DNA of 64,000 nt, from assembly GCA_029860075.1 (NCBI GenBank), contig JAOUBX010000001.1:89965-153964 (forward strand). The letters are read 5' to 3'. This stretch comes from Deltaproteobacteria bacterium (GTDB lineage Bacteria > Desulfobacterota > JADFVX01). Positions within the stretch are counted from its first letter, which is position 1. Each line of letters starts with the position of its first letter. This document shows positions 5,049 through 53,691 of the stretch, one piece after another. The notes beneath the pieces are model-generated. The model did not search any database. It was given only the letters and a program-made list of their open reading frames with translations, and was not told the origin of the DNA. The position numbers and the translations under genes were made by a program.

Positions 5049-5960
5049 TTAAAAATCGAGCGGGCTTCCGGTTTTCTTGATGGTTGTCGTCTTGATTGTA
5101 TGGGTGTAAATCATGGTCGTTCGTATGTCACTATGCCCCAGTAGCTGCCGGATTGTCCTGATATCGTAATTAGCCTGGAGCAGATGACTGGCAAAACTGT
5201 GCCGGAAGGTATGAGCACTTACCCTTTTTATAATGCCTGCCTGCTTAACGGCTCTTTTCACTGCTTTATTGACGTGGCTTTCGTGCAGGTGATATTGTCG
5301 CAGTTCTTCTGTCTCGGGTACTTTTGTCAGATTAATTGCGGGGAAAAACCACTGCCGGGGCAATTCTTTAGCACAGTTTTTGTATTTTTTCTCAATGGCA
5401 TTGAACATAAAAGCACCATCATAGGCAGCCTTTTCGTCTTCCTGGAGTACCTTCTTTACGTTTTCAATCTAACCCGTTAGTTGAGGATAAATACTTTCCG
5501 GTAAAGGTACCGTCCTGTCCTTTTGTCCTTTCCCGTCATGGATTGTAAGAATCGCTGTATCAAAATTAAAATTGTTGATGCCTAATTTAAGACATTCAAA
5601 AAGGCGTAAGCCGCAACCACAGAGTAGCTTGACTACCAGATCATAAGGGTGTTCAAGAGAATCGAGTACAAGGTTGACTTCTTCTTTTGATAAAACGACT
5701 GGAATATAAGGTTTTTTTTTGCTCTTACATTGTCTTTATGCTGGCCAAAGTCTTTTTTGATAATATGCTTATAAAAAAAGAGCAATGCATTAAAAGGCTG
5801 GTTTTGTATTGATGAACTACGGAAGATTGCATTAATAATGGGGCAAAAGTGAATTATAAGAACTTGTTTATCAAAAAAAGAGGCTTTGTTTTTTTTAAAT
5901 TGAGAAATCAGGCAATATATTCTTGAAAAAAGGTAATGATTGCGATAAAGATAAGTTATT
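5049..5960 (-). pseudogene. intI: Integron integrase (IntI-family tyrosine recombinase), disrupted.
   Basis: Minus-strand translation aligns with IntI. It gives NALLFFY...PYIPVVLSKEEV...LLCGCGLRLFECLKL...DGKGQKDRTVPLPESIYPQLTG(TAG)IENVKK...WFFPA...HTFRHSFASHLLQANYDIRTIRQLLGHSDIRTTMIYTH. The IntI-specific extra segment (WFWVFA-like WFFPA plus the following helix) is present. The gene is interrupted by an in-frame TAG near 5475 and by a frameshift in a 9-T homopolymer near 5711-5719. No canonical start codon precedes the N-terminus, which is degraded. Confidence 0.75.
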
Positions 5961-6040
5961 AAATTTAATTATTGGTTGCGGTAAGGGGAATTCTACTAAT
6001 AGGGTTTTTCTACAGCCTCGTTAGCTGATAAAACAATTAA
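5960..6040. other. Putative attI region between intI and the first cassette.
   Basis: The sequence tttttctacagcctcGTTAGCT near 5990-6020 resembles the 3' half of the downstream attC site (ttttcctacagactcGTTATATT at 10185-10206). It lies where attI is expected, immediately 5' of intI on the opposite strand. Confidence 0.35.
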
Positions 6041-6051
6041 GTGAGTAAGAT

Positions 6052-6699
6052 ATGAAAACAAATGGTTGGGTAGAAATAATTAAGTCCATTAAAACTCCAA
6101 TTAGCTTACTTGCTCTAATCACCTTGATCGTCGGGTCGTTACTACATTTCAATCCAGATCCAGTAAGTAGATGGGCGGCAATATTTTTGCTTTTTATAAT
6201 CACTATATTTACTATCGCATACGCCATCAAGTATAAGTCGCTATTCCCAACTGAAATAAGATCGATCTGGAGTAAAAATGATCTTCCATTAGAAGAGAGC
6301 GAAAGAGACTCATGGTTAGGTAAATGGAACTGTCGTTGGACATTTAGAGAAAAAGACAATCAGCTTAAGCCATATGTGGATGATATTATTGAAATCAATG
6401 AAATTGGTTGTAACAGTGGTGAATTGACTGGTATGGGCTTTTCTTCCTATATTGAAGGGTCAAAATATTTTCTCAAAGGCCGAGTGTCAAATAAAAGAAT
6501 TGCACACATATTTTATACTAGTTCTGCGGAAACAGCCGGATTGTCAGGCATGGTTATTTTAAGTCGTCCCCCTATTGGTGATATCACAGGATGGTGGCTT
6601 GGTGCAGGGCGTAAAGGTGGAGATATTGGTGGAGGGGTAACTATGGAACGGCATGAGAACAACCTTGATTTCAAGATTAAAAAGTACGAAATCAGCTAA
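6052..6699 (+). CDS. Cassette ORF: hypothetical membrane protein with two N-terminal TM helices and a Gly-rich C-terminal domain.
   Basis: 215-aa ORF starting 30 bp after the putative attI, followed directly by an attC-like hairpin. AT-rich codon usage is typical of integron cassettes. Confidence 0.55.
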   Translation: MKTNGWVEIIKSIKTPISLLALITLIVGSLLHFNPDPVSRWAAIFLLFIITIFTIAYAIKYKSLFPTEIRSIWSKNDLPLEESERDSWLGKWNCRWTFREKDNQLKPYVDDIIEINEIGCNSGELTGMGFSSYIEGSKYFLKGRVSNKRIAHIFYTSSAETAGLSGMVILSRPPIGDITGWWLGAGRKGGDIGGGVTMERHENNLDFKIKKYEIS

Positions 6700-6707
6700 G
6701 TCTTTTT

Positions 6708-6777
6708 AAATAACAGCAGCTATCCAATGGGTCAAGTTGACGCCTAAAAGCGGCGCAACTTACCCATAACGTTATGT
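6708..6777 (+). repeat. attC-like recombination site (ATAAC ... ATAAC|GTTAT).
   Basis: Imperfect hairpin: AAGTTGACGCC pairs with GGCGCAACTT with one extrahelical base. It is flanked by ATAAC (6710-6714) and GTTAT (6771-6775) and sits between two same-strand ORFs. Confidence 0.5.
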
Positions 6778-6794
6778 GTAAATAAGGAGCAATC

Positions 6795-7211
6795 ATGTCG
6801 AAAATGCAAAGCCATTTGGAAATGATTCAGGGGATAATAAATCGATTGTCTCACAATTCTTTCCTACTAAAAGGATGGACTGTAGTGCTAGTTTCAGCCC
6901 TCTTTGCTCTCGCAGCAAAAGACAAGAATGCACTATTCATCTACCTGTCATACTTTCCTTCTATTGCATTTTGGTGTCTTGATGGATACTTCCTGTGGCA
7001 AGAAAGACTTTTTAGAGCTTTATACGATAATGTACGTGTAATGAAAGAAGAAAATATCGATTATTCAATGAATGTCAAAAATGCTGACATTTCGGAGATT
7101 ACTTGGTCAAGTGCTTTTCTTTCAAAAACACTCATTATGTTTCATGGTGTAATTCTCGGTTCTATAATCATTGTAATGCTTCTAACCTTAAAAGGAGGGT
7201 GTAATGGCTAG
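6795..7211 (+). CDS. Small 2-TM protein, SLATT-like (DUF4231-like) putative membrane effector.
   Basis: 138 aa with two predicted TM helices (GWTVVLVSALFALAA and LIMFHGVILGSIIIVMLL) and a conserved soluble segment between them. The stop overlaps the start of the downstream TIR-like gene (ATGGCTAG). Similarity to SLATT is my inference from architecture, not a verified alignment. Confidence 0.5.
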   Translation: MSKMQSHLEMIQGIINRLSHNSFLLKGWTVVLVSALFALAAKDKNALFIYLSYFPSIAFWCLDGYFLWQERLFRALYDNVRVMKEENIDYSMNVKNADISEITWSSAFLSKTLIMFHGVILGSIIIVMLLTLKGGCNG

Positions 7212-7614
7212 AAAAGTTTTTTTTAGTTTTCATTATGCAGATATAATGAATGCAAACATTGTTAGAAATTCTGGACAATTTAAACCAACAGCTGAAACTG
7301 GATTTTATGATAAGTCCCTTTGGGAGGATGCAGAGACTAAAGGAAAGACCGCTATTCAAAAATTAATAGACGATGGTCTTCATAACACTAGCGTTACATG
7401 CTTTCTTCTCGGAGAAAAAACATATGCCCGTCCTTACTGCAAGTATGAGCTTGAAAAAAGTCTCGATGAGAAAAAAGGTATTCTTGGGATATTATTACCA
7501 AATCAAGAAAAACATGGCCCAAAATGGATTAGTAAATATGGAAGAGTATACAGTTGGGACCATAGTAAATTTGCTGATTGGGTTGAGAAAGCTGCAAGGG
7601 ATGCTGGGAGATAA
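7204..7614 (+). CDS. TIR-like domain protein (DUF1863/MTH538-type TIR fold).
   Basis: The N-terminus MARKVFFSFHYAD matches the kVFISYshxD beta-A strand signature of TIR-like domains. The later VTCFLLGEKTYARPYCKYELEKS segment matches the VivliSxnxxxSxWvxxEl helix region. Start overlaps the upstream 2-TM ORF by 8 nt. Confidence 0.6.
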   Translation: MARKVFFSFHYADIMNANIVRNSGQFKPTAETGFYDKSLWEDAETKGKTAIQKLIDDGLHNTSVTCFLLGEKTYARPYCKYELEKSLDEKKGILGILLPNQEKHGPKWISKYGRVYSWDHSKFADWVEKAARDAGR

Positions 7615-8482
7615 CAGTAATAAAAACACTACAGGGGTTGATGGGGTCGGACAGGACTTTAACCTGCTAGATATGTTGCCGGTAACGGCGTACGGTCCGA
7701 CCCCATTGCAGCATGCGTTGATAACAAAAGAAAAGGGGGCACTCAAATTGAAGATTCTATATGCCGAAGATGAGGAAAGACTCCAAAAGTCTACTGCGAT
7801 GCTAATGAGTTGTTGGGGGTATGATTTTGACTTGGCTTCTAATGGTCAAGATGTGGTTGAATATGCCAAAGCAAATGAAGGAGGATATGACCTTTGCCTG
7901 ATGGATGTTGATATGCCCATCATGAATGGTTGCGAAGCAACGGAAATGATACGTCAAAAGTTTCAATATTTTCCTATTATGGGGCTATCAGGAAATCCGC
8001 AATATAAAGATAAATGTCTTGAAATCGGTATGGATGATTTTTTGTCAAAACCCTGTTCTCCAGACGAACTTCTTGCTAAAATCAATGAGCTAACAGTCAA
8101 GTTTGAAAAACTATGCTTTAAAGATGAAACTATTTTTTTGAAAAAGGAGATGCCCATGGACCAGCAACATGCACAAGAATTGAGAGAATTAAAAAAGCAA
8201 GATTTGATTAAAGTTAAATTTGATGATGTAAGCGGTTCAGAGGTTGTTGTTCATAAAAACATTATCAACAAAATTGTTCAGGATTTTAACATCAAAAAAC
8301 AGTTTGTTTCGACATTCATAAACCGCAACCCCGAGAAACCAACCAAGTGTATCCTCTTTGGCAATAATTGCCGTATGCCACAAATGTATCTTGATGGTGA
8401 GGATTATGAAGGCGAGTTGCAAGCAGAAAACGAAGAAGTAAAAAAGTACCCATCCATGATTTTGAAAGCCGAAGAAAAGTAA
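7601..8482 (+). CDS. Response-regulator receiver (REC/CheY-like) domain protein with an uncharacterised ~170-aa C-terminal domain.
   Basis: LKILYAEDEE...DLCLMDVDMPIMNGCEATEMIRQ...IMGLSGNP...GMDDFLSKP is a canonical REC domain (acidic pocket, phospho-acceptor Asp in LMDVDMP, conserved Lys in SKP). Start is uncertain: 7601 overlaps the TIR gene end by 14 nt; 7673 is the alternative. The six-frame ORF's 7373 start lies inside the TIR gene and is unlikely. Confidence 0.6.
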   Translation: MLGDNSNKNTTGVDGVGQDFNLLDMLPVTAYGPTPLQHALITKEKGALKLKILYAEDEERLQKSTAMLMSCWGYDFDLASNGQDVVEYAKANEGGYDLCLMDVDMPIMNGCEATEMIRQKFQYFPIMGLSGNPQYKDKCLEIGMDDFLSKPCSPDELLAKINELTVKFEKLCFKDETIFLKKEMPMDQQHAQELRELKKQDLIKVKFDDVSGSEVVVHKNIINKIVQDFNIKKQFVSTFINRNPEKPTKCILFGNNCRMPQMYLDGEDYEGELQAENEEVKKYPSMILKAEEK

Positions 8483-8647
8483 AATACAAAGCTAATCTTC
8501 GGCGGAACTTTCAGGCCTCTGAAAATCCAACAGAACTTCGAGCGACTTCAAACTGGAGCAGCTCAAAATGTCCAGCCAATGCTAAAAGCTCGTGGCTGAA
8601 AAGTGAGGGCAAACAAAAGTAGGTTGCCCTCAAGAAACGTGGAATTT

Positions 8648-8768
8648 CTAACAAATCAATAAAGAGGGAGCACCAAACATGCGTACTTGATTTTAGTATC
8701 TTACTCCGCTTAAACATTGTCGGTGGTTTTGGGCTGGTTGCCCCGCATGTTTGGCACCCCCTTATTGT
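8648..8768 (+). repeat. VCR-like attC site, copy A of a repeated ~110-bp element.
   Basis: CTAACaaatcaATAAAGAGGGAgcaccAAACATGCGTACTTGATTTT ... GCCCCGCATGTTTGGcaccCCCTTATTGT. The terminal arms are inverse complements with bulges and the centre is variable. It lies between the REC-gene stop and the next cassette ORF and is nearly identical at its ends to copy B at 11613-11721. Confidence 0.55.
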
Positions 8769-8787
8769 GTCGTAATGCTTTTAAAAC

Positions 8788-9243
8788 ATGAAAGAATGCC
8801 CAACATTTGAAAATGCAATCCAGTCCTTTGAAGGATTTTTGAAATCAGAGAATAAATCCCAGGCGATTCAATGGTTATTTCGTGAAGATATCACAACTTA
8901 CAAATTAAAAATGTGGATCAAAATCCCTTATTTTGAAAATCACTGGGAGGTAGCAAAGAAAATTTACCAATTGGGGTTAGATCGTGGGTTCGGTATCAGA
9001 ATCATCCAGATTGGTTCTATTAATAATGATTCTTTATGCTACATCTGGTTGCCACAAGATGAATTAGATATGGACCAATCAATGATGGACCATAATCTGA
9101 AATTAAGTATTTCTCAAACAAACCGGGGGATTACTCCGATTAAAAATAGCGGTTTCTGGAATTTAATAAAATGGGTAAACTCCAAGAGGGGCTACAATTA
9201 TTTAGAAAGTGATATGCCAAGTAGAAAATCATTGATGGTATAA
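8788..9243 (+). CDS. Cassette ORF: hypothetical soluble protein (151 aa).
   Basis: ORF begins 20 bp after the attC-like repeat, on the same strand as all other cassettes. No recognisable domain. Confidence 0.5.
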   Translation: MKECPTFENAIQSFEGFLKSENKSQAIQWLFREDITTYKLKMWIKIPYFENHWEVAKKIYQLGLDRGFGIRIIQIGSINNDSLCYIWLPQDELDMDQSMMDHNLKLSISQTNRGITPIKNSGFWNLIKWVNSKRGYNYLESDMPSRKSLMV

Positions 9244-9392
9244 CAATGAAATACACACCAACCTGGAACCCTGCACTTTTTTGTATGCTTTTGGTAGATT
9301 TGGAGTGCATCATTTTTTCCGCACTGGCTGGAAGGTCCCAGGCGGGTGATTTAGATGCTAGCCTTACGAAATTAAAGAATGGAGAATAATAG

Positions 9393-10001
9393 ATGAGAAC
9401 GACCCTAATAGTCTTATTTTTAATAGCTATGCTCATTTCTTCGACTCAAACATTTCGGCACTTTTATGTGAAGTTTATTCATCCAACTGGCTCGGTTTTG
9501 GACCAATTTAAAACAGAAACTGAATCAGATATCGAAAAAGCAAAAAGTATAGATGATCTTGTTACACTTTATCGTAAGGCAAAAGATGAAATTAAAAAAT
9601 ATGAATCAGACTCCAGCAATCCGAAAATTGAACACAAACGTCGAAAAAATATTGAACCGTATAAATCTGAAATTCAAATTAAAGGGGAAATACGATCAAG
9701 AGAATACGATCAAAATCAACTGTTCAAATTATGCTTTTATTGGCTTTGTGGATTGCTTAGCACACTTATAGGCATCTTTGCTTTCAAGAAAATTAATAAT
9801 TGGTTGGGACTTTCAGGAATAATTGTAGGGTTTTCCGAAATGCTATGTTGGACAAGTCCACTATTTCACAATCGTCTACTTAGTCAACAATATGAATACT
9901 TGTTGAATTATAAATTATTGTTCTCGTTTGTAACTATGGTTTTCCTGGCATCACTTTGGCTAATAGTTGAAAAGAGGGACTTTTTAGCAGAAAAAGGCTA
10001 A
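9393..10001 (+). CDS. Cassette ORF: hypothetical membrane protein with an N-terminal TM, a charged coiled middle and three C-terminal TM helices.
   Basis: 202-aa ORF with RBS-like gaatggagaat upstream, followed by an attC-like hairpin. Confidence 0.5.
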   Translation: MRTTLIVLFLIAMLISSTQTFRHFYVKFIHPTGSVLDQFKTETESDIEKAKSIDDLVTLYRKAKDEIKKYESDSSNPKIEHKRRKNIEPYKSEIQIKGEIRSREYDQNQLFKLCFYWLCGLLSTLIGIFAFKKINNWLGLSGIIVGFSEMLCWTSPLFHNRLLSQQYEYLLNYKLLFSFVTMVFLASLWLIVEKRDFLAEKG

Positions 10002-10044
10002 AAAGGTGCTTGAAAACGATGCAGAAACCAGCACGTTTCAGCTC

Positions 10045-10206
10045 AAACGTTGAAGCTGTAGGAAAACCCCTTTTGAAGTTTTTTTTTGGAAAAACCACAA
10101 AAATGACAAATATTTAATTCAATAAAATCAGCATGTTAGGAAATCGAAAAAATTATATTTTCGTAAATTTTTATTAAATTTGAGTTTTCCTACAGACTCG
10201 TTATAT
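10045..10206 (+). repeat. attC-like site with a long AT-rich loop.
   Basis: AACGTTGAAGCTGTAGGAAAAC (10046-10067) pairs with GTTTTCCTACAGACTCGTTAT (10185-10204). The 3' arm ends in GTTAT as in the other sites. A smaller hairpin (GCTTGAAAACG/CGTTTCAGC) lies just upstream at 10009-10044. Confidence 0.4.
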
Positions 10207-10255
10207 TGTTTTTATAAGATACTTAAGTTTCTCGCTTTGAGTGGAGGTATAACAT

Positions 10256-10468
10256 ATGGAAACATTTATTAATATTTTTGTCAGTTGGTTCCCAATGATC
10301 CTTTTAATTGCGGTCTGGGTACTTATGGTGAAAAAAATCAGGCCAACACAAAAAGAGTCTGTTTCTTTAATGAGGAAGCAAGCTGAACTCTTAGAACAGC
10401 ATCTTCAACAGGCCGAGCGAATAGCAAGTGCTCTCGAAAAAATCTCTCAAAAATTGAATTCAGAATGA
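10256..10468 (+). CDS. Cassette ORF: small single-TM protein with a C-terminal coiled coil (70 aa).
   Basis: Strong RBS (gagtggaggtataacatATG), a hydrophobic helix (FPMILLIAVWVLMV) and an amphipathic tail. No family assignment. Confidence 0.45.
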   Translation: METFINIFVSWFPMILLIAVWVLMVKKIRPTQKESVSLMRKQAELLEQHLQQAERIASALEKISQKLNSE

Positions 10469-10575
10469 GTATATACAAAGAAACAATATGACCAGTCACT
10501 AAACCGGACCGTACACCCACGTTGGCTCTTGCCAATGGCTCCGGCTTGGTCGATTGGCTTTACGTTAGAGCTCAA

Positions 10576-10965
10576 ATGAAAAAAACAATTAGCATAGTTT
10601 CAATTTTTCTTTTGGTAATTTTTATCGGATATGCAGTTATTAAAATTATTGGGTCAGCTGGTAATATTAATAACCCCGATGCTCAACTAGAAGCAATGCT
10701 ACCAGAGGAAAGAGAATTCTGTAAAAAAGTCCTATGGCAGATTAAACCTGAATCTAGTGTAAAAGATGTAATAACATTACTTGGTAAGCCATCTCGTGAT
10801 TTAAAACTTAAAAAGAATTGGTGGATGAAATTAAACGGAAAAAAGGACAGAGTGGGCGTTTATTTTACCTTGTCAGGCTTTGCAGAAGAGGTTGTTTTAG
10901 ATGGAGGGCCAGGCAGATTCTACTATAGAAGAAAAGTATCAGATCATGTGAGTAAAAACTTCTAA
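10576..10965 (+). CDS. Cassette ORF: small secreted or membrane-anchored protein (130 aa from MKKTISIV).
   Basis: Signal-peptide-like N-terminus MKKTISIVSIFLLVIFIGYAV. The six-frame ORF extends to 10522, but that Met has no RBS and the 10576 Met gives a typical signal peptide. The stop TAA sits inside the CTAAC inverse core of the next attC. Confidence 0.5.
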   Translation: MKKTISIVSIFLLVIFIGYAVIKIIGSAGNINNPDAQLEAMLPEEREFCKKVLWQIKPESSVKDVITLLGKPSRDLKLKKNWWMKLNGKKDRVGVYFTLSGFAEEVVLDGGPGRFYYRRKVSDHVSKNF

Positions 10966-11038
10966 CATTCTCATTCACCAGATCGTCACCTTCGCCTTTT
11001 CGGGCTCCGGTGCTAACTGGTGATGAAGGGTGTTAGGA
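10961..11038 (+). repeat. Canonical attC site (inverse core TCTAAC ... core GTTAGG).
   Basis: 78-bp imperfect palindrome with TTCACCAG/CTGGTGA(tg)AA arms and an inner ATCGTCACC/GGTGCTAA pair with bulged bases. It begins with CTAAC overlapping the ORF stop codon and ends with GTTAGG, as in classical integron attC sites. Confidence 0.65.
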
Positions 11039-11054
11039 ATACAAAGTAAAAGAG

Positions 11055-11549
11055 TTGGAACAATTCAAATATAGCCATACACTAGAACTGTCGGAGTCTG
11101 AATATGCCGATATATACGGCATTTACTCAAGGCGTTCACGTCCTTGGCGACGGTCTTTGGTCGTCATTGGTGGTGTCGCTTGTTTGTTTTGGACTTACAC
11201 GCTTCTTTTAGGAATCGTACTACTCGGTTTGGCATGCTTGGCTGTTTTCGAACCACGCATGGTACCCTTTGGTGCGTCATCGATATTCAAGGGTCACGCT
11301 CATTTGCATCAGCCACTCACTTTTGGAGTTTCCGATGTGAAACTATCGGTTTCGGGATCCAATTTGAATTTATATTGTGATTGGTCAAATCTCGCAGTGT
11401 GGTATGAACGCGACGGCTGGTTACGTGTTTCACCGCATGGTATGCAAGATTTGTATTTTCGTGTTTCAGATTTACAGGAGAAAGCGGTGTATAATAGCGT
11501 CTTAGAATTGTGCCGGAAACACGGGAAAGAGTTTAATAGTAAGGATTAA
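11055..11549 (+). CDS. Cassette ORF: membrane-associated hypothetical protein (YcxB-like or bacterial PH-like, tentative).
   Basis: 164 aa with two TM helices after a basic RSRPWRRS stretch and a C-terminal beta-rich domain. The stop is followed by CTAAC. Confidence 0.45.
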   Translation: MEQFKYSHTLELSESEYADIYGIYSRRSRPWRRSLVVIGGVACLFWTYTLLLGIVLLGLACLAVFEPRMVPFGASSIFKGHAHLHQPLTFGVSDVKLSVSGSNLNLYCDWSNLAVWYERDGWLRVSPHGMQDLYFRVSDLQEKAVYNSVLELCRKHGKEFNSKD

Positions 11550-11553
11550 TTTC

Positions 11554-11721
11554 CTAACAAATTGACCGTTAAAACGCGGTTGTGTTTTAACGTCGGCTTA
11601 CTTGAACCAGCAAATAAAGAGGGACCGCCAAACACGCGTACTTGATTTTCAGCGTGTCGTCCCGCAGTAACATTGCGGTAATTTAAAGGCCTCGGCCCGC
11701 ACGTTTGGCGGCCCCTTATTG
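11554..11721 (+). repeat. VCR-like attC site, copy B, carrying a ~47-bp mini-hairpin insertion.
   Basis: Same terminal arms as copy A (AAATAAAGAGGGAccgcCAAACAcGCGTACTTGATTTT ... GCCCGCACGTTTGGcggcCCCTTATTGT). Between the CTAACaaat motif and the repeat body sits the insertion tgaccgTTAAAACgcggttgtGTTTTAAcgtcggcttacttgaaccag, a perfect 9-bp stem-loop that is absent from copy A. Confidence 0.55.
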
Positions 11722-11757
11722 TTGTTGTTATATTTTTGTTACCCATAAGGTAAGTAA

Positions 11758-12402
11758 ATGAATTTGGAACTCCATCACTTTTTCATTCTTGTTAAGCCTG
11801 AGGCAGAAGTCGCGGAAAAATTGATATCAATTGGGATGTGCGAGGGAACAAGAAACAAGCATGAAGGGCAAGGAACTTCAAACAGGCGTTTTAACTTCTC
11901 AAACGGGACTCTAGAGCTGTTATGGGTTCATGATGAAGAGGAGGCAGTTAACGGTCCAGGGAAGGGTATGTGTTTAGCAGAGCGGACTAAAAATACAAGC
12001 GCTTCACCATTTGGGGTTATTTTTAATAGAAAGGATAATTGTAGTCAAGAAATGCCATTTGAAGGATGGAAGTACGAACCTGTCTATTTTCAAGCGCCGT
12101 GGGCTTTTCATATTGGGGCTAACTCGAAGAGCATAGTTGAACCACTCTGTGTATATATGCCATTTATTGAGCCTGGAATGTCAAAAGGACTTGATGAGAA
12201 CGAAACATTTAAGTCTATAACTCAAGTAAAGGTACATACTCCATCGGAACCAATGTCGAATGTTCTGGATATTGTGAAAAACGCTGAAAGGTTAACCATT
12301 GTAAATGGTAAAGAACATTTAATAGAAGTTACTTTCAATGAGAATCATATGGGTTGTTCACAGGATTTCAGGCCAGATCTTCCGCTGGTGGTTAATTGGT
12401 AA
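11758..12402 (+). CDS. Cassette ORF: glyoxalase/VOC-like (Glyoxalase_3-like) domain protein.
   Basis: LHHFFILVKPEAEVAEKL...HEGQGTSNRRFNFSNGTLELLWV resembles the glyoxalase-like domain family. This is the last same-strand small ORF before the convergent giant gene. Confidence 0.45.
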   Translation: MNLELHHFFILVKPEAEVAEKLISIGMCEGTRNKHEGQGTSNRRFNFSNGTLELLWVHDEEEAVNGPGKGMCLAERTKNTSASPFGVIFNRKDNCSQEMPFEGWKYEPVYFQAPWAFHIGANSKSIVEPLCVYMPFIEPGMSKGLDENETFKSITQVKVHTPSEPMSNVLDIVKNAERLTIVNGKEHLIEVTFNENHMGCSQDFRPDLPLVVNW

Positions 12403-12659
12403 GGGATTGAGTGAATAAAAATATAACGATTAGCTACACCGGGTAGTGTTCCACGGCACTTTTTTGTGCTTGAGTAGCACAAAAGAATCACCACTCCAAA
12501 ATGCAGGTTAGCACAGTGTTATAATTGTGCTTCCGGCGGAGGTATATCCGAATCCTTCTTACCTGATACTCTCTCAAAGAGGACGGGGCTTTCGTGCAGT
12601 TGCCATAATGAAAGTAGTCCAGCCACCCTCGGCCATTAATGTCACCTCAGAGCGCTTAT

Positions 12660-15600
12660 TCACTCAACCTTTAATGATGTAGGTGCGCTGAGTGGATTGT
12701 CGTCTAGATCATAAAACTCTAAATCATCTTCATTAGCAAACATCAATTCACCCAAGTACGGTATTTTAATAAGTTTGACAAATTGTTTAGTTCCATCCTC
12801 AAATGTTTTAAAAATAGATTTATTCACTGTAGTTCCTGCCATATGTGAATAAGTATCATAATCAGCACCACCAACTACAACATCACCTTTATAGCGCTGT
12901 TCTGAAACTGAGTTGTTTGGAAATACATAAAATTTCGCAGCTGCACTAAAACCATGCCATCGGTGATGTGTATCAGGCATGTAAAGCAAACGCTCCTGTA
13001 GTTCTTTTTTAAATCTAGCCATTTTAATAGCCCTGGGTTTACCCTCGAATATTTTTCTGGGTGTGTAATATGGAACACTGACAGATTCCAATGGCATTAT
13101 TACCGGTCCCTTACGAACTTGTGCTATCTGTGCTTCCGTGCGATCAATCATATCCCGCTCAATACCTTTCAAAATAGTCGTTAAACGATCATTAGGTACC
13201 CACTTTACTTTAATTTCATGACCGAATGTTGTCATATTTATATCACCAGCTTTATACGCATATTTCGAACCATCCCACTTAACCGCGACATTACTACTGA
13301 TATAAAAGTGCCAATCTCTATAATTACGTATGTTCAAATCTGCCCAAATTTGAAAAGCATCCCAATTATCAACAAAACCTTCTTCATCATTTTTCTTACT
13401 TCTTGGAATTTCAGTAATAGTTACATAATCCAAATTATTATCATCAAAAAGTTCTTGCACTCGTTTAAAGCTGTGTGTGTATTCTATTAAGCTCCCTATT
13501 GCAGAATCATCAACCCCGAAAACTTTGGGTTCAATGCCGGTACGCGCCCACCAGTCAATAGCATTTAAGAATGGAGTTGTATCCTCGTCTTCCGTTTCAG
13601 TGGATTTCAGCCTTTGATATTGTTGAGCAAATTCTGCTGCTATCGTCAATGCCAGTAGTGCCCCTGCTTTAGCTCTGGCTATCTTTGCCTGAGGTTTAGA
13701 TTGTGGTATACGCCTTAATATCCTCTGTTTTTCCTTTCTAGATAAATGACTGCCATTGACCAATTTATGTGCTAAATTTGGATCAATTCGCCATAACATG
13801 GAGACAGCTACATCTCGGTGTTTAGGTGTGATGCGCCCTGTTTCTCGTGCAACTTTCATTAATTTATGAAATCTTTTTATATTGTTAGAATAACTGTGCC
13901 TTTCACGAATGTTCCTCATATAGGGAACTGTTAAAGACTCAACAATTTCTGGTATCGGAATATCTTTCACCAATTTTTTGATTTTCTTTTTAAGGGTTTC
14001 TGGTGTTGCACCCTTAGCAACTATTTCTGTTGTTTTCTTTTCTAAAGCGGTAAGAGATCTCTTAACACTTCGGTAGGCTTCTCTCAATTTGGACTCATTC
14101 AAGCGTTCGTCAAGGTGTCTCCCACTTTGCTCGTGGATGGATAACGCTTCACGCAGCCGAGCCAAACGTCGATAAGCACTCTGAATTTCATTATTTGAAG
14201 AAATAGCGCTTTGTACCACCCCTTTGCCACGCCTAACAATTTCACCATCTGAAAATACTGTTAATGTAGCAACCTTATTGCCGGGACCAGGTTCCTTGGC
14301 AATATGAACATTAAAACCTAATTCAACCAAAGCTCGGTACGTGCTTTGGTTAAGTCTGAAGGTGCTGGCTCTATCTTTCGATTGAATAATAATATCGATA
14401 TCACCTCCGTTGTGATGGAGGTGATGCACTAGTCTTGCCGCACCGCGTGCATCACTGGTTTTCGCCAATTTACCCATATGATGCTGAAAGCCTAATAAAA
14501 TACGTACATTTCGAACGTTTTCCCGATATTCCTTTCCCATCGCACGCTCAAACTCCAATAACGTCTCACTTCTTACATCACCCACATCTAAGAATCGTAT
14601 GCCGCTGGGTTTATGGGTAACAAACATCAATAGACTCGCAGCATCCCCTATCCCATTAGGCGGTTTTTCTCCTTTTAACCGGACTTCTCTTAACTTTGCG
14701 AAGACTCGATTAAGGCCATACAAATCAATTCGTAAAACGTCATTTTCCAAATGTAGATGATGGTATCCTTTTTTATTTTCAGGTTGGGGTATGGCATTAA
14801 AATTAGTAGCTAATCCACTCTTCTTTAATTCAGTTTCAAGGGCTGTTATTCTTTTTGCAAACCCAGATCCTGGTGCATCAGGATTGGTAGCAAAAACAGC
14901 GGGGTAATATATATTATGTGCAAGTATACCTTCTTCCAAAACAATACGCTTGATTTGCCGGATATGATCTTCATGAAGGTGCTTTATAACTACTCCACTG
15001 ATTTCGTTAATTTTTAGAGCTTCTTTGACAGCTGCAATTGCATGAGGATAAACAGCATCAGTAGTGCCAGTATCATTAGCAAGCCCTTTGCCCCTGCCCA
15101 TATGAAACACACGTAGTGATTCTTTGCCACCTGTTGGGACAGCCAAAAGCGGATGTGCCGGGCTGTGCCCTAAACCCGGAGCAGGAACATGAGTAGCATA
15201 TCCGTAGGCAGGCAATATCGCCAGCCTATGACCTTGCCGGATCAGTAGCAGATCATCATCGTCAGGTTCAATAGATTTAGGCGGATTGGATGAGCTTAAA
15301 TTTAGTTTGAACGCAGATTTGGCATTACTGCTTGCTGGTTTATTTACCATGTTATAAACGAATTCTCGGGTTTGCCAACCGGCATCTTTAACTTTATATT
15401 TTAGAAGGGCGATTATTTTGCTGCCGTCTAATGGCAAATGACGCACTACAGCGCTATTATCTTTTGCGAAATTATTTATGTCTGCAGGTTGCAGACGGCT
15501 ACCTGATGGATGATCGGATTTAATAATCAAATCCCATTCTTCAACATCAATGTCATTCCTTTTCCATTTGAACGTCACAACATCCTCTGTAATTGCAGTT

Positions 15601-16841
15601 CCCGGTACAGGCCAGACAAGTTCTGGAGCTCGCATGACAATAGGTCGTAGAAGAAAACGGCTTGCGCTGGATCCAGCCTTGGAACTATGAACAATAAGGT
15701 CTCCACTATTATTCATGGCTACTATTTTATGGATTTTCAACTTCTCTCCGATAGGCAAAAGTTTATCCAATGGAGACATAATATTGTTATGCATAATAAA
15801 ATGTACAGGTTCAGATTCAGTATAGGCACCCTTAAATTCAACAACATAGCCAGCTATCATATTAGAATCATTAATCAAAACAGGTGTAAATTCTTGATAG
15901 TAGTCTGGCCTGGCAGGGGAAAGCATTCCCTCAAAAATATGGATATTTCCATCCTCTATTGTAAATATCTTCGTCGATCTGGGGTCTCCCTCTTCTATAT
16001 ATATGGGGCAGTCTGCTGGCTTAGCATAAATTATTTCTGGAGGATTTGTGGCGAATGCACCAACGAGTGTTCCTATGGAATTATTTGCCGAAACACCCCC
16101 TGGGCCTGGTAACTTTGTCGACAATAATAATGACTCGGATTGTAAATCGTATTGATAAATTATTGATTGTCGATTCGAGGTGTTTAAGCATGCAATTGGT
16201 GTCTGAAGATCGTATGGAGTATAATTCCAGTCATTTAGAACATGACCCTCCATTGGGGCTGGTACATAAGGTTTTCCTCCACCAACAAGTCTGTCCTGGT
16301 CGGTTAATAAAGGCATATAAAGAAATTCGAAATCACCAAAACGGGTATAGGATTTCAATTTATTATTTCGAAAAGTAAAATGTTTCCTTGCATAATGTTC
16401 ACTTGCTAATATAGTTCCTTTATTATTTAATGACGCGCTTTCCAGAGATGGATCAAGACTTTCTTTCTCGCTTATATTATATTCGAAAACTTTATGATCT
16501 TTTATATTAAAAAGCGACATTGCAGTTATTTCCTGATAGGTCATATTTCCCGTTTTCTTAGTAATGTATTTATTAGCTAGGACTTCTCCACGATCGTTGA
16601 GGCTAGTATACCTATAACCAGGTCTTGGTGTGATTTGACGAACAATTTTATTATCCTTCCAGATGCCATACATTTCTTTTCCATAGTTAATAAGTACTTC
16701 AGACTCGTTGTTGATGTCAATTGGAGTAGCATCTTTTATGCCCAGGTCAACAATTTCATATAAAGGCGGATTTGCAAATATTACAGGAGGGTGTGCTAAT
16801 AGGTTGGCTGCAATACAAAAATATAGACACGTATATTTCAT
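12660..16841 (-). CDS. Giant secreted protein (1393 aa) with a signal peptide, a beta-rich N-terminal region, an internal metallo-beta-lactamase-fold domain and a long coiled C-terminal region.
   Basis: N-terminal MKYTCLYFCIAANLLAHPPVIFA signal peptide. HLHEDH (HxHxDH) and downstream FVTHKP..DVGD and FQHHMG motifs define an MBL fold. Codon usage is AT-rich like the cassette array. Confidence 0.7.
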   Translation of the reverse strand: MKYTCLYFCIAANLLAHPPVIFANPPLYEIVDLGIKDATPIDINNESEVLINYGKEMYGIWKDNKIVRQITPRPGYRYTSLNDRGEVLANKYITKKTGNMTYQEITAMSLFNIKDHKVFEYNISEKESLDPSLESASLNNKGTILASEHYARKHFTFRNNKLKSYTRFGDFEFLYMPLLTDQDRLVGGGKPYVPAPMEGHVLNDWNYTPYDLQTPIACLNTSNRQSIIYQYDLQSESLLLSTKLPGPGGVSANNSIGTLVGAFATNPPEIIYAKPADCPIYIEEGDPRSTKIFTIEDGNIHIFEGMLSPARPDYYQEFTPVLINDSNMIAGYVVEFKGAYTESEPVHFIMHNNIMSPLDKLLPIGEKLKIHKIVAMNNSGDLIVHSSKAGSSASRFLLRPIVMRAPELVWPVPGTAITEDVVTFKWKRNDIDVEEWDLIIKSDHPSGSRLQPADINNFAKDNSAVVRHLPLDGSKIIALLKYKVKDAGWQTREFVYNMVNKPASSNAKSAFKLNLSSSNPPKSIEPDDDDLLLIRQGHRLAILPAYGYATHVPAPGLGHSPAHPLLAVPTGGKESLRVFHMGRGKGLANDTGTTDAVYPHAIAAVKEALKINEISGVVIKHLHEDHIRQIKRIVLEEGILAHNIYYPAVFATNPDAPGSGFAKRITALETELKKSGLATNFNAIPQPENKKGYHHLHLENDVLRIDLYGLNRVFAKLREVRLKGEKPPNGIGDAASLLMFVTHKPSGIRFLDVGDVRSETLLEFERAMGKEYRENVRNVRILLGFQHHMGKLAKTSDARGAARLVHHLHHNGGDIDIIIQSKDRASTFRLNQSTYRALVELGFNVHIAKEPGPGNKVATLTVFSDGEIVRRGKGVVQSAISSNNEIQSAYRRLARLREALSIHEQSGRHLDERLNESKLREAYRSVKRSLTALEKKTTEIVAKGATPETLKKKIKKLVKDIPIPEIVESLTVPYMRNIRERHSYSNNIKRFHKLMKVARETGRITPKHRDVAVSMLWRIDPNLAHKLVNGSHLSRKEKQRILRRIPQSKPQAKIARAKAGALLALTIAAEFAQQYQRLKSTETEDEDTTPFLNAIDWWARTGIEPKVFGVDDSAIGSLIEYTHSFKRVQELFDDNNLDYVTITEIPRSKKNDEEGFVDNWDAFQIWADLNIRNYRDWHFYISSNVAVKWDGSKYAYKAGDINMTTFGHEIKVKWVPNDRLTTILKGIERDMIDRTEAQIAQVRKGPVIMPLESVSVPYYTPRKIFEGKPRAIKMARFKKELQERLLYMPDTHHRWHGFSAAAKFYVFPNNSVSEQRYKGDVVVGGADYDTYSHMAGTTVNKSIFKTFEDGTKQFVKLIKIPYLGELMFANEDDLEFYDLDDNPLSAPTSLKVE

Positions 16842-52236: not shown

Positions 52237-52851
52237 CTATTTAGTTATTGATAGTAACTCAGGAGCTGATGGCGGGTCAATATCGTATATTCCACTTATT
52301 TCTATCTCCATTGCGCTTTGCCTTGCAAGCAGTACAAGAGGACCCTCTGTCAGTGGGGAAAGGTTAACGGTTATACTCCAGTTTCCACTGGCATCAGAGG
52401 TGGTGCTGCCAAGCAAAGTCATGGAATTCTTGTCGAATGTTTCTATTAAGGTAGATGCAACTCCCGTACCTGTAAGCGTAAAAGAGGTATAGTTGCTTAA
52501 GTTTGCCTTAAAATTATCTCCCGGGATTTGTATGTTAAATGTGCTGATTTCATTTGAAAACTCACTTTCGTTCCCTTTGGCGTCGAATGATTTCATAACA
52601 AAAAAATAAACCTCGCCGTTAGGCAGGCCCGTTATTGTGTGGCTCGTCTGGTTCCCCATGACAGGAGGCGTATTGTTTGTGTAAACACCGCTCCTATTGC
52701 CCCAGTAGATGACGAAATGGTCAATATACAGCCCTTCATCCCAGGTTGACCAGCCAAGGGTTACGTCCAGGGCAAGCGCCGGTGTCGATATGAACAGTGA
52801 AACAAGGAGGTTGATAATAAATATTTTTATTTTCTTCTTAAAAGATCTCAT
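52237..52851 (-). CDS. Secreted fibronectin-type-III-like domain protein.
   Basis: Signal peptide, then TLGWSTW...YFFVMKSFDAKGNESEFSNEIS, an FN3-like pattern. Confidence 0.6.
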   Translation of the reverse strand: MRSFKKKIKIFIINLLVSLFISTPALALDVTLGWSTWDEGLYIDHFVIYWGNRSGVYTNNTPPVMGNQTSHTITGLPNGEVYFFVMKSFDAKGNESEFSNEISTFNIQIPGDNFKANLSNYTSFTLTGTGVASTLIETFDKNSMTLLGSTTSDASGNWSITVNLSPLTEGPLVLLARQSAMEIEISGIYDIDPPSAPELLSITK

Positions 52852-52921
52852 AGTCAGTTGTGGTTATGTCCCCTCTTAATTGTGTAATATCCTTTTCCTT
52901 ACAAAATGTTCTGCAAAGGTT

Positions 52922-53317
52922 TTAGGGCATAAAAATGCTTAACTCATTGGAGAAACTGCTTTCGTTGCCTGCCGCATCAACAACTTTAAGTGAAAAAAAC
53001 CATTCATTTGGAGAAAGGCCCGACAGGGTGTAGCTGCAATTATTGATATTGCCGCAGCCCGATGGTGCGCCGACACCGGTATCGGTACAGCTGATTTCAA
53101 TAAGGTTGACCGGTATTTGAGCCGTATAGGTTCGCGGGGCAATTCCGTAATGAATGACGTAACCATCGAGGTCTGAAGCACATGATCCGCTTTGACTGGT
53201 TGAAGGGGCCGTCCAGGTAAGGGTAATATTGGTCCCATTGGCAGTTCCATTGAGAGCATATTCCTTAACTGTTGTTGTGCCCACGTCACCGCAGGCGGTA
53301 TGTATTGATGCCGCCAT
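52922..53317 (-). CDS. Small secreted FN3-like protein. Start uncertain; the six-frame ORF extends to 53593.
   Basis: ITLTWTAPSTSQSG...YTLSGLSPNEWFFSLKVVDAAGNESSFSNELSIF FN3-like pattern. The ORF segment upstream of Met-93 (MIFSKVKTYFPVPGQCCRPGRREKNCHFDEAEGE...) looks non-native. Confidence 0.45.
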   Translation of the reverse strand: MAASIHTACGDVGTTTVKEYALNGTANGTNITLTWTAPSTSQSGSCASDLDGYVIHYGIAPRTYTAQIPVNLIEISCTDTGVGAPSGCGNINNCSYTLSGLSPNEWFFSLKVVDAAGNESSFSNELSIFMP

Positions 53318-53659
53318 TAATGTGAGGATGACATAACGTGAAAAGAGGCGGGGCCTTTTATCTCTTAAATAAAAAAACTTTTTGACGGGAAAAAACAAAC
53401 TGCTGAGAAGAAGCAATGTCCGCTCAGCAAATTGCGCTGACCTGTCATTTCGGGTGAAGGGAGAAATCTTTTCCTCCCTGACTTCCAGTATTTCTCCTTC
53501 TGCCTCGTCGAAATGACAATTTTTTTCCCTTCTTCCAGGCCGGCAACACTGGCCTGGAACAGGAAAATAAGTTTTAACCTTTGAAAAAATCATGGATTTT
53601 ACTTAGCCGGTATTTTACAGTTCATCCGATAAAATATCGGCTCCCCTTTCCCCTGGACT

Positions 53660-53691
53660 AAAAAAGCCGCCAGAAGTTTATCTCTGGCGGC
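53660..53691 (-). terminator. Rho-independent terminator-like hairpin on the minus strand (GCCGCCAGA-N8-TCTGGCGGC followed by T6 in minus-strand sense).
   Basis: Perfect 9-bp GC-rich stem immediately followed by a run of six U in the minus-strand transcript. No annotated minus-strand gene lies upstream of it. Confidence 0.5.

What the first reader, a model, noticed from the sequence alone, without database searches (positions are those of the whole stretch)
5049..12650. Chromosomal integron: degenerate intI plus an array of ~10 same-strand cassettes with attC-like sites
A minus-strand IntI-family integrase is followed in the opposite direction by small AT-rich ORFs, all on the plus strand. 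Each ends at or near an imperfect-hairpin element with ATAAC/CTAAC ... GTTAT/GTTAG ends. One of these (10961-11038) is a textbook attC with the stop codon inside the inverse core. The integrase includes the integron-specific extra segment (WFFPA...HTFRHSFASHLL). This is the defining architecture of an integron, here inside a genome that otherwise looks like a Deltaproteobacteria-type EPS-rich chromosome. The cassettes encode almost entirely unknown membrane or secreted proteins.
Basis: partly seen in the sequence, partly recalled or inferred. Interest (0 to 1): 0.75.

Follow-up and report, generated by a model that had tools for sequence, protein, structure and literature searches.

The report
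Decayed chromosomal integron with attC-targeting MITE
This is a real but dead chromosomal integron: a broken integrase gene beside seven or eight gene cassettes, one of them a candidate TIR phage-defence pair; it is ordinary as integrons go, but it is interrupted by a small transposable element from a widespread family that inserts specifically into integron recombination sites.

Summary
On the minus strand, 5052-5818 is the remnant of an integron integrase. It scores 276.9 bits against TIGR02249 (cutoff 265) and aligns without gaps to VchIntIA through the IntI-specific segment. It is inactivated three ways: the N-terminus is missing, there is a frameshift, and there is an in-frame TAG. No attI is recognisable.

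Downstream, ten plus-strand ORFs form 7-8 cassettes (6021-12518), not about 10. I built attC covariance models only from integrons of other genomes. In the whole window they give 10 hits, and 7 are plus-strand hits at the predicted inter-ORF positions. Four are strong (6718-6777, 9996-10055, 10960-11038, 11604-11729) and three are weak.

Four of the seven carry a point mutation in the AAC or GTT core, which fits decay after loss of the integrase. One (7630-7725) remains unexplained.

The other (10042-10207) is a 148-nt MITE inserted in the R' core of an attC. That MITE family occurs in at least 120 metagenome stretches and nearly always sits at attC R' sites in a fixed orientation.

One cassette is the PADLOC candidate defence pair PDC-M50 (TM protein + ThsB-like TIR). 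The same pair occurs in other arrays with different neighbours.

The integron is a new member of a known kind. The MITE is the interesting part.

The parts
5052..5818 (-). intI pseudogene (integron integrase remnant). Homology to the intact 438-aa relative P0002 starts at its residue 183. There is an in-frame TAG at 5469-5471 and a frameshift in the T9 run around 5714-5726.
   Evidence: tblastn: 69% identity over 225 aa plus 74% over 35 aa in another frame. TIGR02249 276.9 bits, profile positions 66-313 of 315; 2a3v residues 72-307 aligned without gaps.
5819..5988 (.). AT-rich stretch of unknown origin where attI and the intI 5' end would be expected. No attI is recognisable.
   Evidence: no fold signal (z -0.27) and no similarity to the MITE or to any of the 218 fetched loci.
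5989..6019 (+). Right-end remnant of a second MITE copy (…GGGTTTTTCTACAGCCTC). It abuts the core GTTAGCT (6020-6026), which starts cassette 1.
   Evidence: (D15, I1).
6021..6771 (+). Cassette 1: ORF 6052-6699 (215 aa, no family) plus attC 6718-6777 (R'' AGCTATC, with the AAC core mutated to ATC; R' GTTATGT).
   Evidence: bottom strand folds with extrahelical T and G, z -3.6; 40.8 bits; 43.1 bits, E 4.9e-8.
6772..8772 (+). Fused unit of two or more former cassettes. It holds PDC-M50A TM protein 6795-7211, PDC-M50B/ThsB-like TIR 7204-7614, the unexplained hairpin 7630-7725 (stem 7641-7652/7695-7706), receiver-domain protein 7748-8482, and the long attC 8646-8778 (R'' TTCTAAC; R' GTAATGC, with the GTT core mutated).
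   Evidence: attC 11.9 bits; sister of attC 11601-11733.
8773..9357 (+). Cassette: ORF 8788-9243 (151 aa), with attC 9238-9363 (R'' GTATAAC containing the stop codon; R' GCTAGCC, with the GTT core mutated).
   Evidence: z -1.8; 9.5 bits, weak.
9358..10051 (+). Cassette: ORF 9393-10001 (202 aa), with attC 9996-10055 (R'' GGCTAAA containing the stop codon, AAC mutated to AAA). Its R' is split by the MITE, and the original R' continues as GTTATAT at 10200-10206.
   Evidence: 15.3 bits; 25.2 bits, E 4.3e-4.
10052..10199 (+). 148-nt MITE with terminal inverted repeats GAAGCTGTAGGAAAAC / GTTTTCCTACAGACTC. It is flanked by GTT on both sides (10049-10051 and 10200-10202).
10201..11032 (+). Cassette with two ORFs (10256-10468, 70 aa; 10576-10965, 129 aa) and the textbook attC 10960-11038 (R'' TTCTAAC containing the stop codon; R' GTTAGGA).
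   Evidence: z -3.7; 27.2 bits; 29.1 bits, E 5.8e-5. 10486-10570 scores only 7.0 bits.
11033..11727 (+). Cassette: ORF 11055-11549 (164 aa) and the long attC 11601-11733 (R'' CTTGAAC, R' GTTATAT). An older R'' TCCTAAC at 11552-11558 is separated from it by a 49-nt insert.
   Evidence: 20.7 bits, E 0.004.
11728..12524 (+). Last cassette: ORF 11758-12402 (214 aa, weak Glyoxalase_3 match) and attC 12421-12524 (R'' ATATAAC, R' GTTATAA). This is the end of the array.
   Evidence: z -2.1; 10.1 bits, weak.

Best explanation
The locus is a chromosomal integron that has lost its recombination machinery and is decaying in place.

Shown:
- An IntI-type tyrosine recombinase gene has lost its 5' third and carries a frameshift and a stop codon.
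- No attI is recognisable.
- Seven attC sites lie in cassette orientation and delimit 7-8 cassettes carrying 10 ORFs.
- Four of the seven sites have a substitution in the otherwise near-invariant AAC (R'') or GTT (R') triplet.
- A 148-nt MITE sits inside the R' core of one attC, and the right end of a second copy abuts the core that precedes cassette 1.

Inferred:
- The cassettes were captured one by one by IntI-catalysed recombination of folded bottom-strand attC hairpins at G|TT, while the integrase still worked. The TM+TIR pair in particular is found in other organisms' arrays.
- Loss of intI and attI then froze the array. The MITE or its parent IS may have helped cause that loss, because the remnant lies exactly at the array's proximal edge.
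- Since then, attC sites have been drifting, with core mutations, a lost attC after the TIR gene, and insertions.
- The three sites with intact cores (10960-11038, 11601-11733, 12421-12524) could still be substrates for an integrase supplied in trans.
For: Integrase:
- TIGR02249 'integron integrase' scores 276.9 bits against a cutoff of 265, even though only profile positions 66-313 are present.
- It aligns without gaps to VchIntIA (2a3v) residues 72-307. Xer proteins match only in two blocks that skip query residues 115-170, which is the IntI-specific segment.
- The catalytic R, K, HxxR, H and Y are all readable in that alignment.
- The closest relatives are about 70% identical proteins that their sources name integron integrase.
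- The truncation, frameshift and TAG are shown.

attC sites:
- Model R1 was built from 22 attC sites of other genomes.
- In 1.05 Mb of 85 control loci, all 84 hits at E<=0.1 lie in the orientation expected for cassettes; in the 80 intI loci, all lie upstream of intI, and none lie downstream.
- R1 and R2 hit 6718-6777, 10960-11038, 9996-10055 and 11604-11729 strongly, and 8646-8778, 12421-12524 and 9238-9363 weakly. All are on the plus strand and all at inter-ORF positions.
- Bottom strands fold with the extra bases on the R''-L'' arm.

Decay:
- The cores read ATC, GTA, GCT and AAA in four sites (alignments). Among 84 model hits in other integrons the counts are AAC 82/84 and GTT 84/84.

Cassette mobility:
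- The TIR gene is 89-92% identical at DNA level to genes in arrays L010 and L012-L015. Those arrays have different neighbours and different attC sites, and L012 and L015 diverge exactly after GCGTTA.

MITE.
Against: - Three attC calls (9.5-11.9 bits) are individually no better than the best background hits (14.2, 10.6 and 9.7 bits elsewhere in the window). They are credible only collectively and by position.
- The comparison of core mutations is biased, because the models reward AAC and GTT, so mutated sites in other arrays are under-sampled.
- The frameshift lies in a T9 run of a short-read metagenome assembly and has no independent confirmation. The 5' truncation and the TAG do not depend on it.
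- No sister genome was available, so there is no direct evidence on when the array last changed or whether it is really frozen.
- A second, intact intI elsewhere in this MAG cannot be excluded.
- The causal link between the MITE and the loss of intI/attI is conjecture. 170 nt (5819-5988) between them is unexplained.
Confidence: 0.85

Rival explanations
1. This is a still-functional cassette array (a CALIN-like platform) serviced in trans by an intact integron integrase encoded elsewhere in the same genome. Under this reading the local intI remnant is irrelevant and the cassettes still shuffle.
For: - Three attC sites keep both cores and a canonical geometry (10960-11038, 11601-11733, 12421-12524).
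- A MITE-split attC keeps L'-spacer-CGTT, so it may still be cleavable.
- Sample SRR7134660 holds a variant junction at 7629|7630, which shows some population heterogeneity.
- Cury et al. 2016 discuss CALIN elements in genomes that encode an integrase elsewhere (PMC4889954).
Against: - Four of seven sites carry substitutions in the triplets that are 82/84 and 84/84 conserved in arrays next to intI genes.
- The polymorphic breakpoint lies inside R'', not at G|TT, so it is not an IntI product.
- The other contigs from SRR7134660 are 100% identical and in the same order as the window.
- No second intI is present in the 64-kb window.
Confidence: 0.1
2. This is not an integron at all. Under this reading, a phage or Xer-type tyrosine recombinase remnant happens to lie next to a run of small genes separated by ordinary terminator or REP-like hairpins.
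For: - Several inter-ORF hairpins are weak or non-canonical: 7630-7725 has no model hit, 10486-10570 scores 7 bits with z -0.9, and 9238-9363 has z -1.8.
- Rfam has no family that matches here.
Against: - The recombinase passes the curated integron-integrase cutoff and has the IntI-specific segment.
- attC models with no false positive in the 551 kb downstream of intI in the 80 intI loci (either strand) hit four sites here at 20.7-43.1 bits (R2) in the right orientation.
- Three stop codons lie inside R''.
- The terminator-like count is at chance, 3 against 4.6 expected.
- The TM+TIR pair occurs as a cassette in other arrays.
Confidence: 0.02

Closest known systems
CALIN with a neighbouring intI pseudogene, i.e. 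an inactivated chromosomal integron (Cury et al. 2016, PMC4889954; Xanthomonas integrons, PMC12444791)
   Same: An attC/cassette cluster lies next to an IntI remnant inactivated by deletion, frameshift and stop codon. Cury et al. found such pseudogenes near 15 of 279 CALIN elements, and IS elements in a quarter of complete integrons. In Xanthomonas most intI genes are inactivated by frameshifts, stops or large deletions, and the arrays are then stable.
   Different: The host is an uncultured Deltaproteobacteria MAG. The IntI belongs to a clade whose intact members are about 420-440 aa long with a long N-terminal extension. The attC sites are heterogeneous, with only one sister pair, unlike typical large sedentary integrons. 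The decay of individual attC cores is visible site by site.
Sedentary chromosomal integrons of the Vibrio type
   Same: The location is chromosomal, on a 184-kb contig between housekeeping-type genes. The cassettes mostly have unknown function and are promoterless-looking, and they include a defence-type cassette (cassettes as defence reservoirs: bioRxiv 10.1101/2024.07.02.601719 and PMC12614218).
   Different: The array is small (7-8 cassettes), the attC sites are not homogeneous, and the integrase is dead.
IS1111-attC insertion sequences and group IIC-attC introns, the known mobile elements that target attC sites
   Same: The MITE in this array and its relatives insert into attC sites in one orientation. 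Papers on the known attC-targeting elements, IS1111-attC and group IIC-attC introns, were found (PMC11187229 and PMC3001079).
   Different: The autonomous relative found here (L065) encodes a 516-aa DDE transposase with DDE_Tnp_1_6, DUF772 and DDE_Tnp_1 domains. I recognise that architecture as IS1182-like from my own knowledge. It is neither a DEDD IS110/IS1111 enzyme nor an intron reverse transcriptase. It has terminal inverted repeats and a GTT duplication, and it inserts at the R' core rather than elsewhere in the site. I found no description of it in the held literature.
PADLOC candidate defence system PDC-M50 / Thoeris ThsB
   Same: ORF 6795-7211 matches PDC-M50A (E 2.7e-52). ORF 7204-7614 matches ThsB1 (7.9e-39), PDC-M50B (1.5e-35) and Pfam ThsB_TIR (1.8e-18).
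   Different: No ThsA-type effector is present in the array, so this is not a Thoeris system. PDC-M50 is only a candidate system, and no function was tested.

Membership tests
Integron | Integron-type tyrosine recombinase (IntI) carrying the IntI-specific additional segment | tested here: met
   TIGR02249 scores 276.9 bits against a cutoff of 265. The alignment to VchIntIA 2a3v is gap-free across residues 72-307, whereas Xer proteins skip query residues 115-170.
Integron | An intact, expressible intI gene | tested here: not met
   Homology starts at residue 183 of a 438-aa relative. There is a frameshift near 5714-5726 and a TAG at 5469-5471.
Integron | An attI site and Pc promoter next to intI | tested here: inconclusive
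   Nothing is recognisable in 5819-6019, which holds unexplained AT-rich DNA plus a MITE end. attI sites have no general model, and promoter-like matches are at chance level.
Integron | attC sites with an R''-L''...L'-R' hairpin and extrahelical bases on the bottom strand, recognised by a covariance model | tested here: met
   R1 and R2 were built from other genomes. R2 gives four hits at 20.7-43.1 bits and three at 9.5-11.9 bits, all on the plus strand and between ORFs. IntegronFinder's own model could not be run.
Integron | Cassettes all in one orientation, divergent from intI, each ending in its attC | tested here: met
   All ten ORFs are on the plus strand while intI is on the minus strand. 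Three stop codons lie inside R''. Two junctions lack a recognisable attC.
Integron | Cassettes are mobile units found in different contexts | tested here: met
   This was tested for one cassette only. The TM+TIR pair occurs in L010 and L012-L015 with different neighbours, and L012 and L015 diverge right after the R' GTTA.
Sedentary chromosomal integron (as classed by Cury et al. 2016) | More than 19 attC sites, or presence in all genomes of the species | tested here: not met
   There are only 7 attC sites. Species-wide presence cannot be tested, because only the same sequence was found in two samples. The criterion is quoted from PMC4889954.
MITE derived from a DDE insertion sequence | Terminal inverted repeats, a flanking duplication, no ORF, many copies, and an autonomous element with the same ends | tested here: met
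   The inverted repeats and the GTT on both sides are shown. At least 120 metagenome stretches were found and 84 copies read. L065 carries a transposase gene between the same ends.
IS1111-attC group | A DEDD (IS110-family) transposase and subterminal repeats | tested here: not met
   The L065 transposase matches the DDE_Tnp_1_6, DUF772 and DDE_Tnp_1 domains.
Thoeris defence system | ThsB (TIR) together with a ThsA effector | tested here: not met
   A ThsB-like TIR is present, but no ThsA match was found among the ten cassette proteins. The partner is PDC-M50A.

The most novel reading that the evidence does not exclude
The 148-nt element at 10052-10199, together with the remnant at 5989-6019, belongs to an undescribed and environmentally widespread family of MITEs, with IS1182-like DDE parents, that recognises the R' core of integron attC sites (…CGTT^AGGC) and inserts there in a single orientation with a GTT duplication.

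The insertion keeps L'-spacer-CGTT intact on its left. On its right it recreates a hairpin followed by GTTRRRY. The element could therefore ride with the downstream cassette, or even be moved by IntI as a pseudo-cassette.

It would be a third, mechanistically different class of attC-targeting parasite, alongside IS1111-attC and group IIC-attC introns, and a possible agent of integron inactivation.
Probability: 0.45. Interest if true: 0.65.

Novelty: new member of a known kind. Interest (0 to 1): 0.4.

Why it matters
The integron itself adds one more inactivated chromosomal integron, from a poorly sampled lineage. Its teaching value is that attC erosion can be read site by site after the integrase was lost. 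It also carries a candidate TIR defence pair as a cassette, which fits the current view of cassettes as defence reservoirs.

The more useful lead is the MITE. If a DDE-type element homes to attC R' cores, it would be a new way for cassette arrays to be parasitised, marked or broken. It would be a source of false 'long attC' calls. It would also be a natural probe of how a transposase recognises a site otherwise read only by IntI.

Tried and rejected
- **Rfam.** Gathering and permissive thresholds gave no attC family and only noise in the region.
- **My own strict-geometry attC scanner** (AAC/GTT required, 4-6/5-7 nt spacers). It validated well on 80 intI loci but found only 3-4 sites in the window. 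It cannot see mutated cores, so I replaced it with covariance models.
- **10042-10207 as a long attC.** Rejected. Its stem is the pair of terminal repeats of a MITE, and the real attC ends at 10055.
- **5865-6034 as an attC or attI hairpin.** It has no fold signal (z -0.27). Only its last ~31 nt match the MITE end.
- **R'' of the first attC at ATAAC 6710-6714** with a 13-nt bulge. The model instead places R'' at 6718-6724 with one substitution.
- **Sister-genome comparison.** Exact-protein look-ups returned only the source contig and 100%-identical short contigs from SRR7134660.
- **Relatives of the 8646/11601 attC family, the 7641 stem and the 49-nt insert** among 218 fetched loci. None were found.
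- **A resemblance of the 8646/11601 sites to Vibrio VCRs.** This was only recalled from memory and not tested, so I dropped it.
- **Promoter and terminator scans.** Both were at chance level.
- **A possible relic attC at 8571-8599** (7.4 bits). It is not significant.

Full report
**Source and context.** The window is part of a 184-kb metagenome contig (ENA ERZ27296429, k141_2948265). NCBI attributes its proteins to a 'Deltaproteobacteria bacterium' MAG (MDH39727xx, locus tags OEV42_). The locus lies between a 1617-aa (1700 aa as called on the full contig) NHL/TPR gene and a 1393-aa gene of unknown function. dnaJ, comEC and EPS genes lie further on, so the context is chromosomal. GC is 0.34-0.39 across most of the array, against roughly 0.42-0.45 in the upstream flank (the downstream flank is more variable, 0.36-0.48), with one cassette at 0.44.

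**The integrase.** On the minus strand, frame-by-frame translation shows an IntI-like reading that needs one frame change and reads through a TAG.
- tblastn with an intact 438-aa relative (P0002) aligns its residues 214-438 to 5052-5726 (69% identity, with an in-frame TAG at 5469-5471).
- Its residues 183-217 align to 5714-5818 in another frame. Nothing upstream aligns.
- The gene has therefore lost its first 182 codons, has a frameshift in a T9 run, and has a stop codon.
- The reconstructed 251-aa translation still scores 276.9 bits on NCBIfam TIGR02249 'integron integrase' (cutoff 265), over profile positions 66-313 of 315. XerC, XerD and XerA models are far below their cutoffs.
- Against solved structures, the best match is VchIntIA (2a3v, E 4e-54), aligned without a gap over residues 72-307.
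- The catalytic R (GLRLFEC), K (GKGQKDR), HxxR (HTFRHSF), H (GHSD) and Y (IYTH) can all be read in that alignment.
- The nearest database proteins are 66-72% identical. Their sources name them integron integrases, from Nitrospirota, Scalindua and Desulfobacterales.

**An attC test independent of the window.** Rfam holds no attC family, so I built my own tests.
- I wrote a strict-geometry scanner and checked it on 80 loci fetched around IntI homologues from reference genomes. At score 11 or more it gave 74 hits upstream of intI in cassette orientation. It gave 7 on the other strand and 20 in 551 kb downstream.
- I aligned 22 short attC sites from those other genomes. Their R-box/L-box structure shows covariation: 86% of cells paired against 73% in shuffles, and 11 pairs with double changes.
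- I built model R1 from that alignment. In 1.05 Mb of control loci, all 84 hits at E<=0.1 lie in the orientation expected for cassettes; in the 80 intI loci, all lie upstream of intI. There were none downstream.
- Model R2 was rebuilt from those 84 hits, with the window excluded.

**attC sites in the window.** With filters off over the whole window, R2 gives ten hits of 9.5 bits or more, and seven are on the plus strand inside the array.

| Site | R2 bits |
|---|---|
| 6718-6777 | 43.1 |
| 10960-11038 | 29.1 |
| 9996-10055 | 25.2 |
| 11604-11729 | 20.7 |
| 8646-8778 | 11.9 |
| 12421-12524 | 10.1 |
| 9238-9363 | 9.5 |

- The three hits elsewhere score 14.2, 10.6 and 9.7 bits. They imply about 0.17 chance hits in the 6.7-kb array strand, where seven are seen (my arithmetic).
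- The three weak sites are credible only collectively and by position.
- DNA folds of the bottom strands support the picture. 6705-6780 (z -3.6) forms the L-box stem with single extrahelical T and G on the R''-L'' arm. 10958-11040 (z -3.7) and 8640-8778 (z -4.3) also fold with the extra bases on that arm. 9238-9360 and 12420-12527 are weaker, at z about -1.8 to -2.1.
- Three stop codons lie inside R'': 9241-9243, 9999-10001 and 10963-10965.

**Signs of decay.** The model alignments show substitutions in the core triplets of four sites:
- R'' AGCTATC at 6718 (AAC to ATC)
- R' GTAATGC at 8772 (GTT to GTA)
- R' GCTAGCC at 9357 (GTT to GCT)
- R'' GGCTAAA at 9996 (AAC to AAA)

Among the 84 model hits in other integrons, AAC is kept in 82 and GTT in all 84. 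That comparison is biased, because the model rewards these triplets.

The two long sites, 8646-8778 and 11601-11733, are sisters: 37-nt and 27-nt blocks are 92% and 89% identical. Each has a different defect. One has the mutated R'. The other has a 49-nt hairpin-containing insert between the old R'' (TCCTAAC, 11552-11558) and L''. A new AAC at the canonical 5-nt spacing is what the model uses there.

**Hairpins that are not attC.** 10486-10570 scores 7 bits with z -0.9, so the 70-aa and 129-aa ORFs share one cassette.

7630-7725 has a perfect 12-bp stem (z -2.9) but gets no model hit at all. Two comparisons show that it replaces an attC:
- The TIR gene is 92% identical to genes in L012-L015. 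Those genes are followed, after the same AAAACAC, by a canonical 58-nt attC (62 bits with R1).
- In sample SRR7134660, a contig that is 100% identical to 5946-7629 continues with ATAACCAATCATTCAACCCGACCGC…, which is a canonical attC start.

The breakpoint 7629|7630 lies inside the ancestral R'', so it is not an IntI product. I could not explain the event.

**The MITE.** The 164-nt hairpin at 10042-10207, which looks like a long attC, is a transposable element.
- Its stem arms (GAAGCTGTAGGAAAAC / GTTTTCCTACAGACTC) match, with 1 mismatch in 20, the ends of a 1.8-kb element in a Nitrospira integron array (L065). That element carries a 516-aa DDE transposase with DDE_Tnp_1_6, DUF772 and DDE_Tnp_1 domains. 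I recognise that architecture as IS1182-like.
- In both places the element is bracketed by CGTT…GTTA.
- In the window it occupies 10052-10199, between two GTT triplets, inside the R' of attC 9996-10055. The original R' continues as GTTATAT at 10200-10206.
- A ~31-nt right end of a second copy (5989-6019) abuts GTTAGCT, the core that starts cassette 1. Its left part is gone, along with attI and the 5' end of intI. The 170 nt between it and the intI remnant match nothing.

**The MITE family at large.** 80 loci holding 84 copies were read.
- 58 of the 81 evaluable copies have GTT on both sides.
- After removing the element and one GTT, 38 of 56 restore a canonical attC ending exactly at that GTT. 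The rate is 49 of 1590 for random GTTs in the same attC-rich loci.
- The restored R' is mostly GTTAGGC, GTTAGCC or GTTAGGT.
- With R2, 44 of these loci gave 63 attC hits at E<=0.001. By my comparison of coordinates, 24 of them end exactly at the tip of the MITE repeat.
- When the copies are oriented by their attC, the interiors of different copies are co-oriented in 324 of 330 significant pairs.
- The family therefore inserts at the R' core of attC sites in one orientation.
- A few copies of a sub-family sit elsewhere with 5-nt duplications, and the L065 IS sits in a cassette ORF at CGTTAT. A sequence preference plus survivorship in 'safe' attC sites is not excluded.
- Searches of the held literature found MITEs flanking whole class 1 integrons, and two attC-targeting groups (IS1111-attC, group IIC-attC introns). 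Nothing like this element was found.

**Cassette contents.**
- ORF 6795-7211 matches PADLOC PDC-M50A (E 2.7e-52).
- The overlapping ORF 7204-7614 matches ThsB1, PDC-M50B and Pfam ThsB_TIR. No ThsA is present.
- The TIR protein's 90% cluster has 36 members, including one from a Candidatus Moranbacteria bin.
- The TM+TIR pair recurs in L010, where it is the first cassette next to an integrase fragment, and in L012-L015, in the middle of arrays. The neighbours and the attC sites differ between these loci.
- The window and L010 share sequence only to the right of G|TTATGTG upstream of the pair.
- ORF 7748-8482 has a receiver domain (E 3.9e-22) with an unassigned C-terminal half.
- ORF 11758-12402 has a sub-threshold Glyoxalase_3 match.
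- The remaining ORFs have no family.

**Verdict.** It is a fossil one, best filed with CALIN elements that keep an intI pseudogene. Cury et al. found these near 15 of 279 CALIN elements. It also resembles the inactivated Xanthomonas integrons. The count of cassettes and the nature of two hairpins needed correction. The unexpected item is the attC-homing MITE.

Noticed in passing
window 10052-10199 and 5989-6019; L065 7180-8995; L099-L178: A MITE family with an IS1182-like DDE parent inserts at the R' core of attC sites in one orientation with a GTT duplication. It was found in at least 120 metagenome stretches. 38 of 56 reconstructed empty sites are canonical attC sites, and interiors are co-oriented in 324 of 330 pairs.
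   Followed up: yes
window 7629|7630; L008 (SRR7134660) last 38 nt: There is a population variant. In another sample the TIR gene is followed by a canonical attC start (ATAACCAATCATTCAACCCGACCGC…) instead of the window's 12-bp-stem hairpin. The breakpoint lies inside R'', not at G|TT.
   Followed up: partly
window 6795-7614; L010, L012-L015: The two-gene PDC-M50 candidate defence pair (TM protein + ThsB-like TIR) travels as an integron cassette. The TIR gene is about 90% identical at DNA level across unrelated arrays, with a cluster member in a Candidatus Moranbacteria bin. The TM partner is only about 50% identical.
   Followed up: partly
L010 about 6417-6450: After the TIR gene in L010, R''-like TTTAAC and R' GTTATGC are only 7 nt apart, which looks like an attC whose whole L''-L' hairpin has collapsed. 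A similar R''…R' pair 20 nt apart lies at window 11552-11585.
   Followed up: no
L005 versus L006 (Candidatus Scalindua): Two Scalindua assemblies share the same intI and flanks but differ by one extra 144-aa cassette next to intI. This is a clean example of cassette presence/absence polymorphism in an integron with an intact integrase.
   Followed up: no
window 53683-53788 (-): A c-di-GMP-I riboswitch (RF01051, 55.1 bits against a gathering score of 35) lies upstream of minus-strand genes at 52237-53593. It is unrelated to the integron.
   Followed up: no
P0002 and relatives (alignment A1): Intact IntI proteins of this clade are 420-440 aa long, with an N-terminal extension of about 110 aa ahead of the usual SAM-like domain. 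It is conserved across Nitrospirota, anammox and Desulfobacterota bins.
   Followed up: no
window 12660-16841 (-): The 1393-aa ORF directly flanking the array end has no Pfam match. It was also the sole member of its 90% cluster in the protein collection.
   Followed up: no
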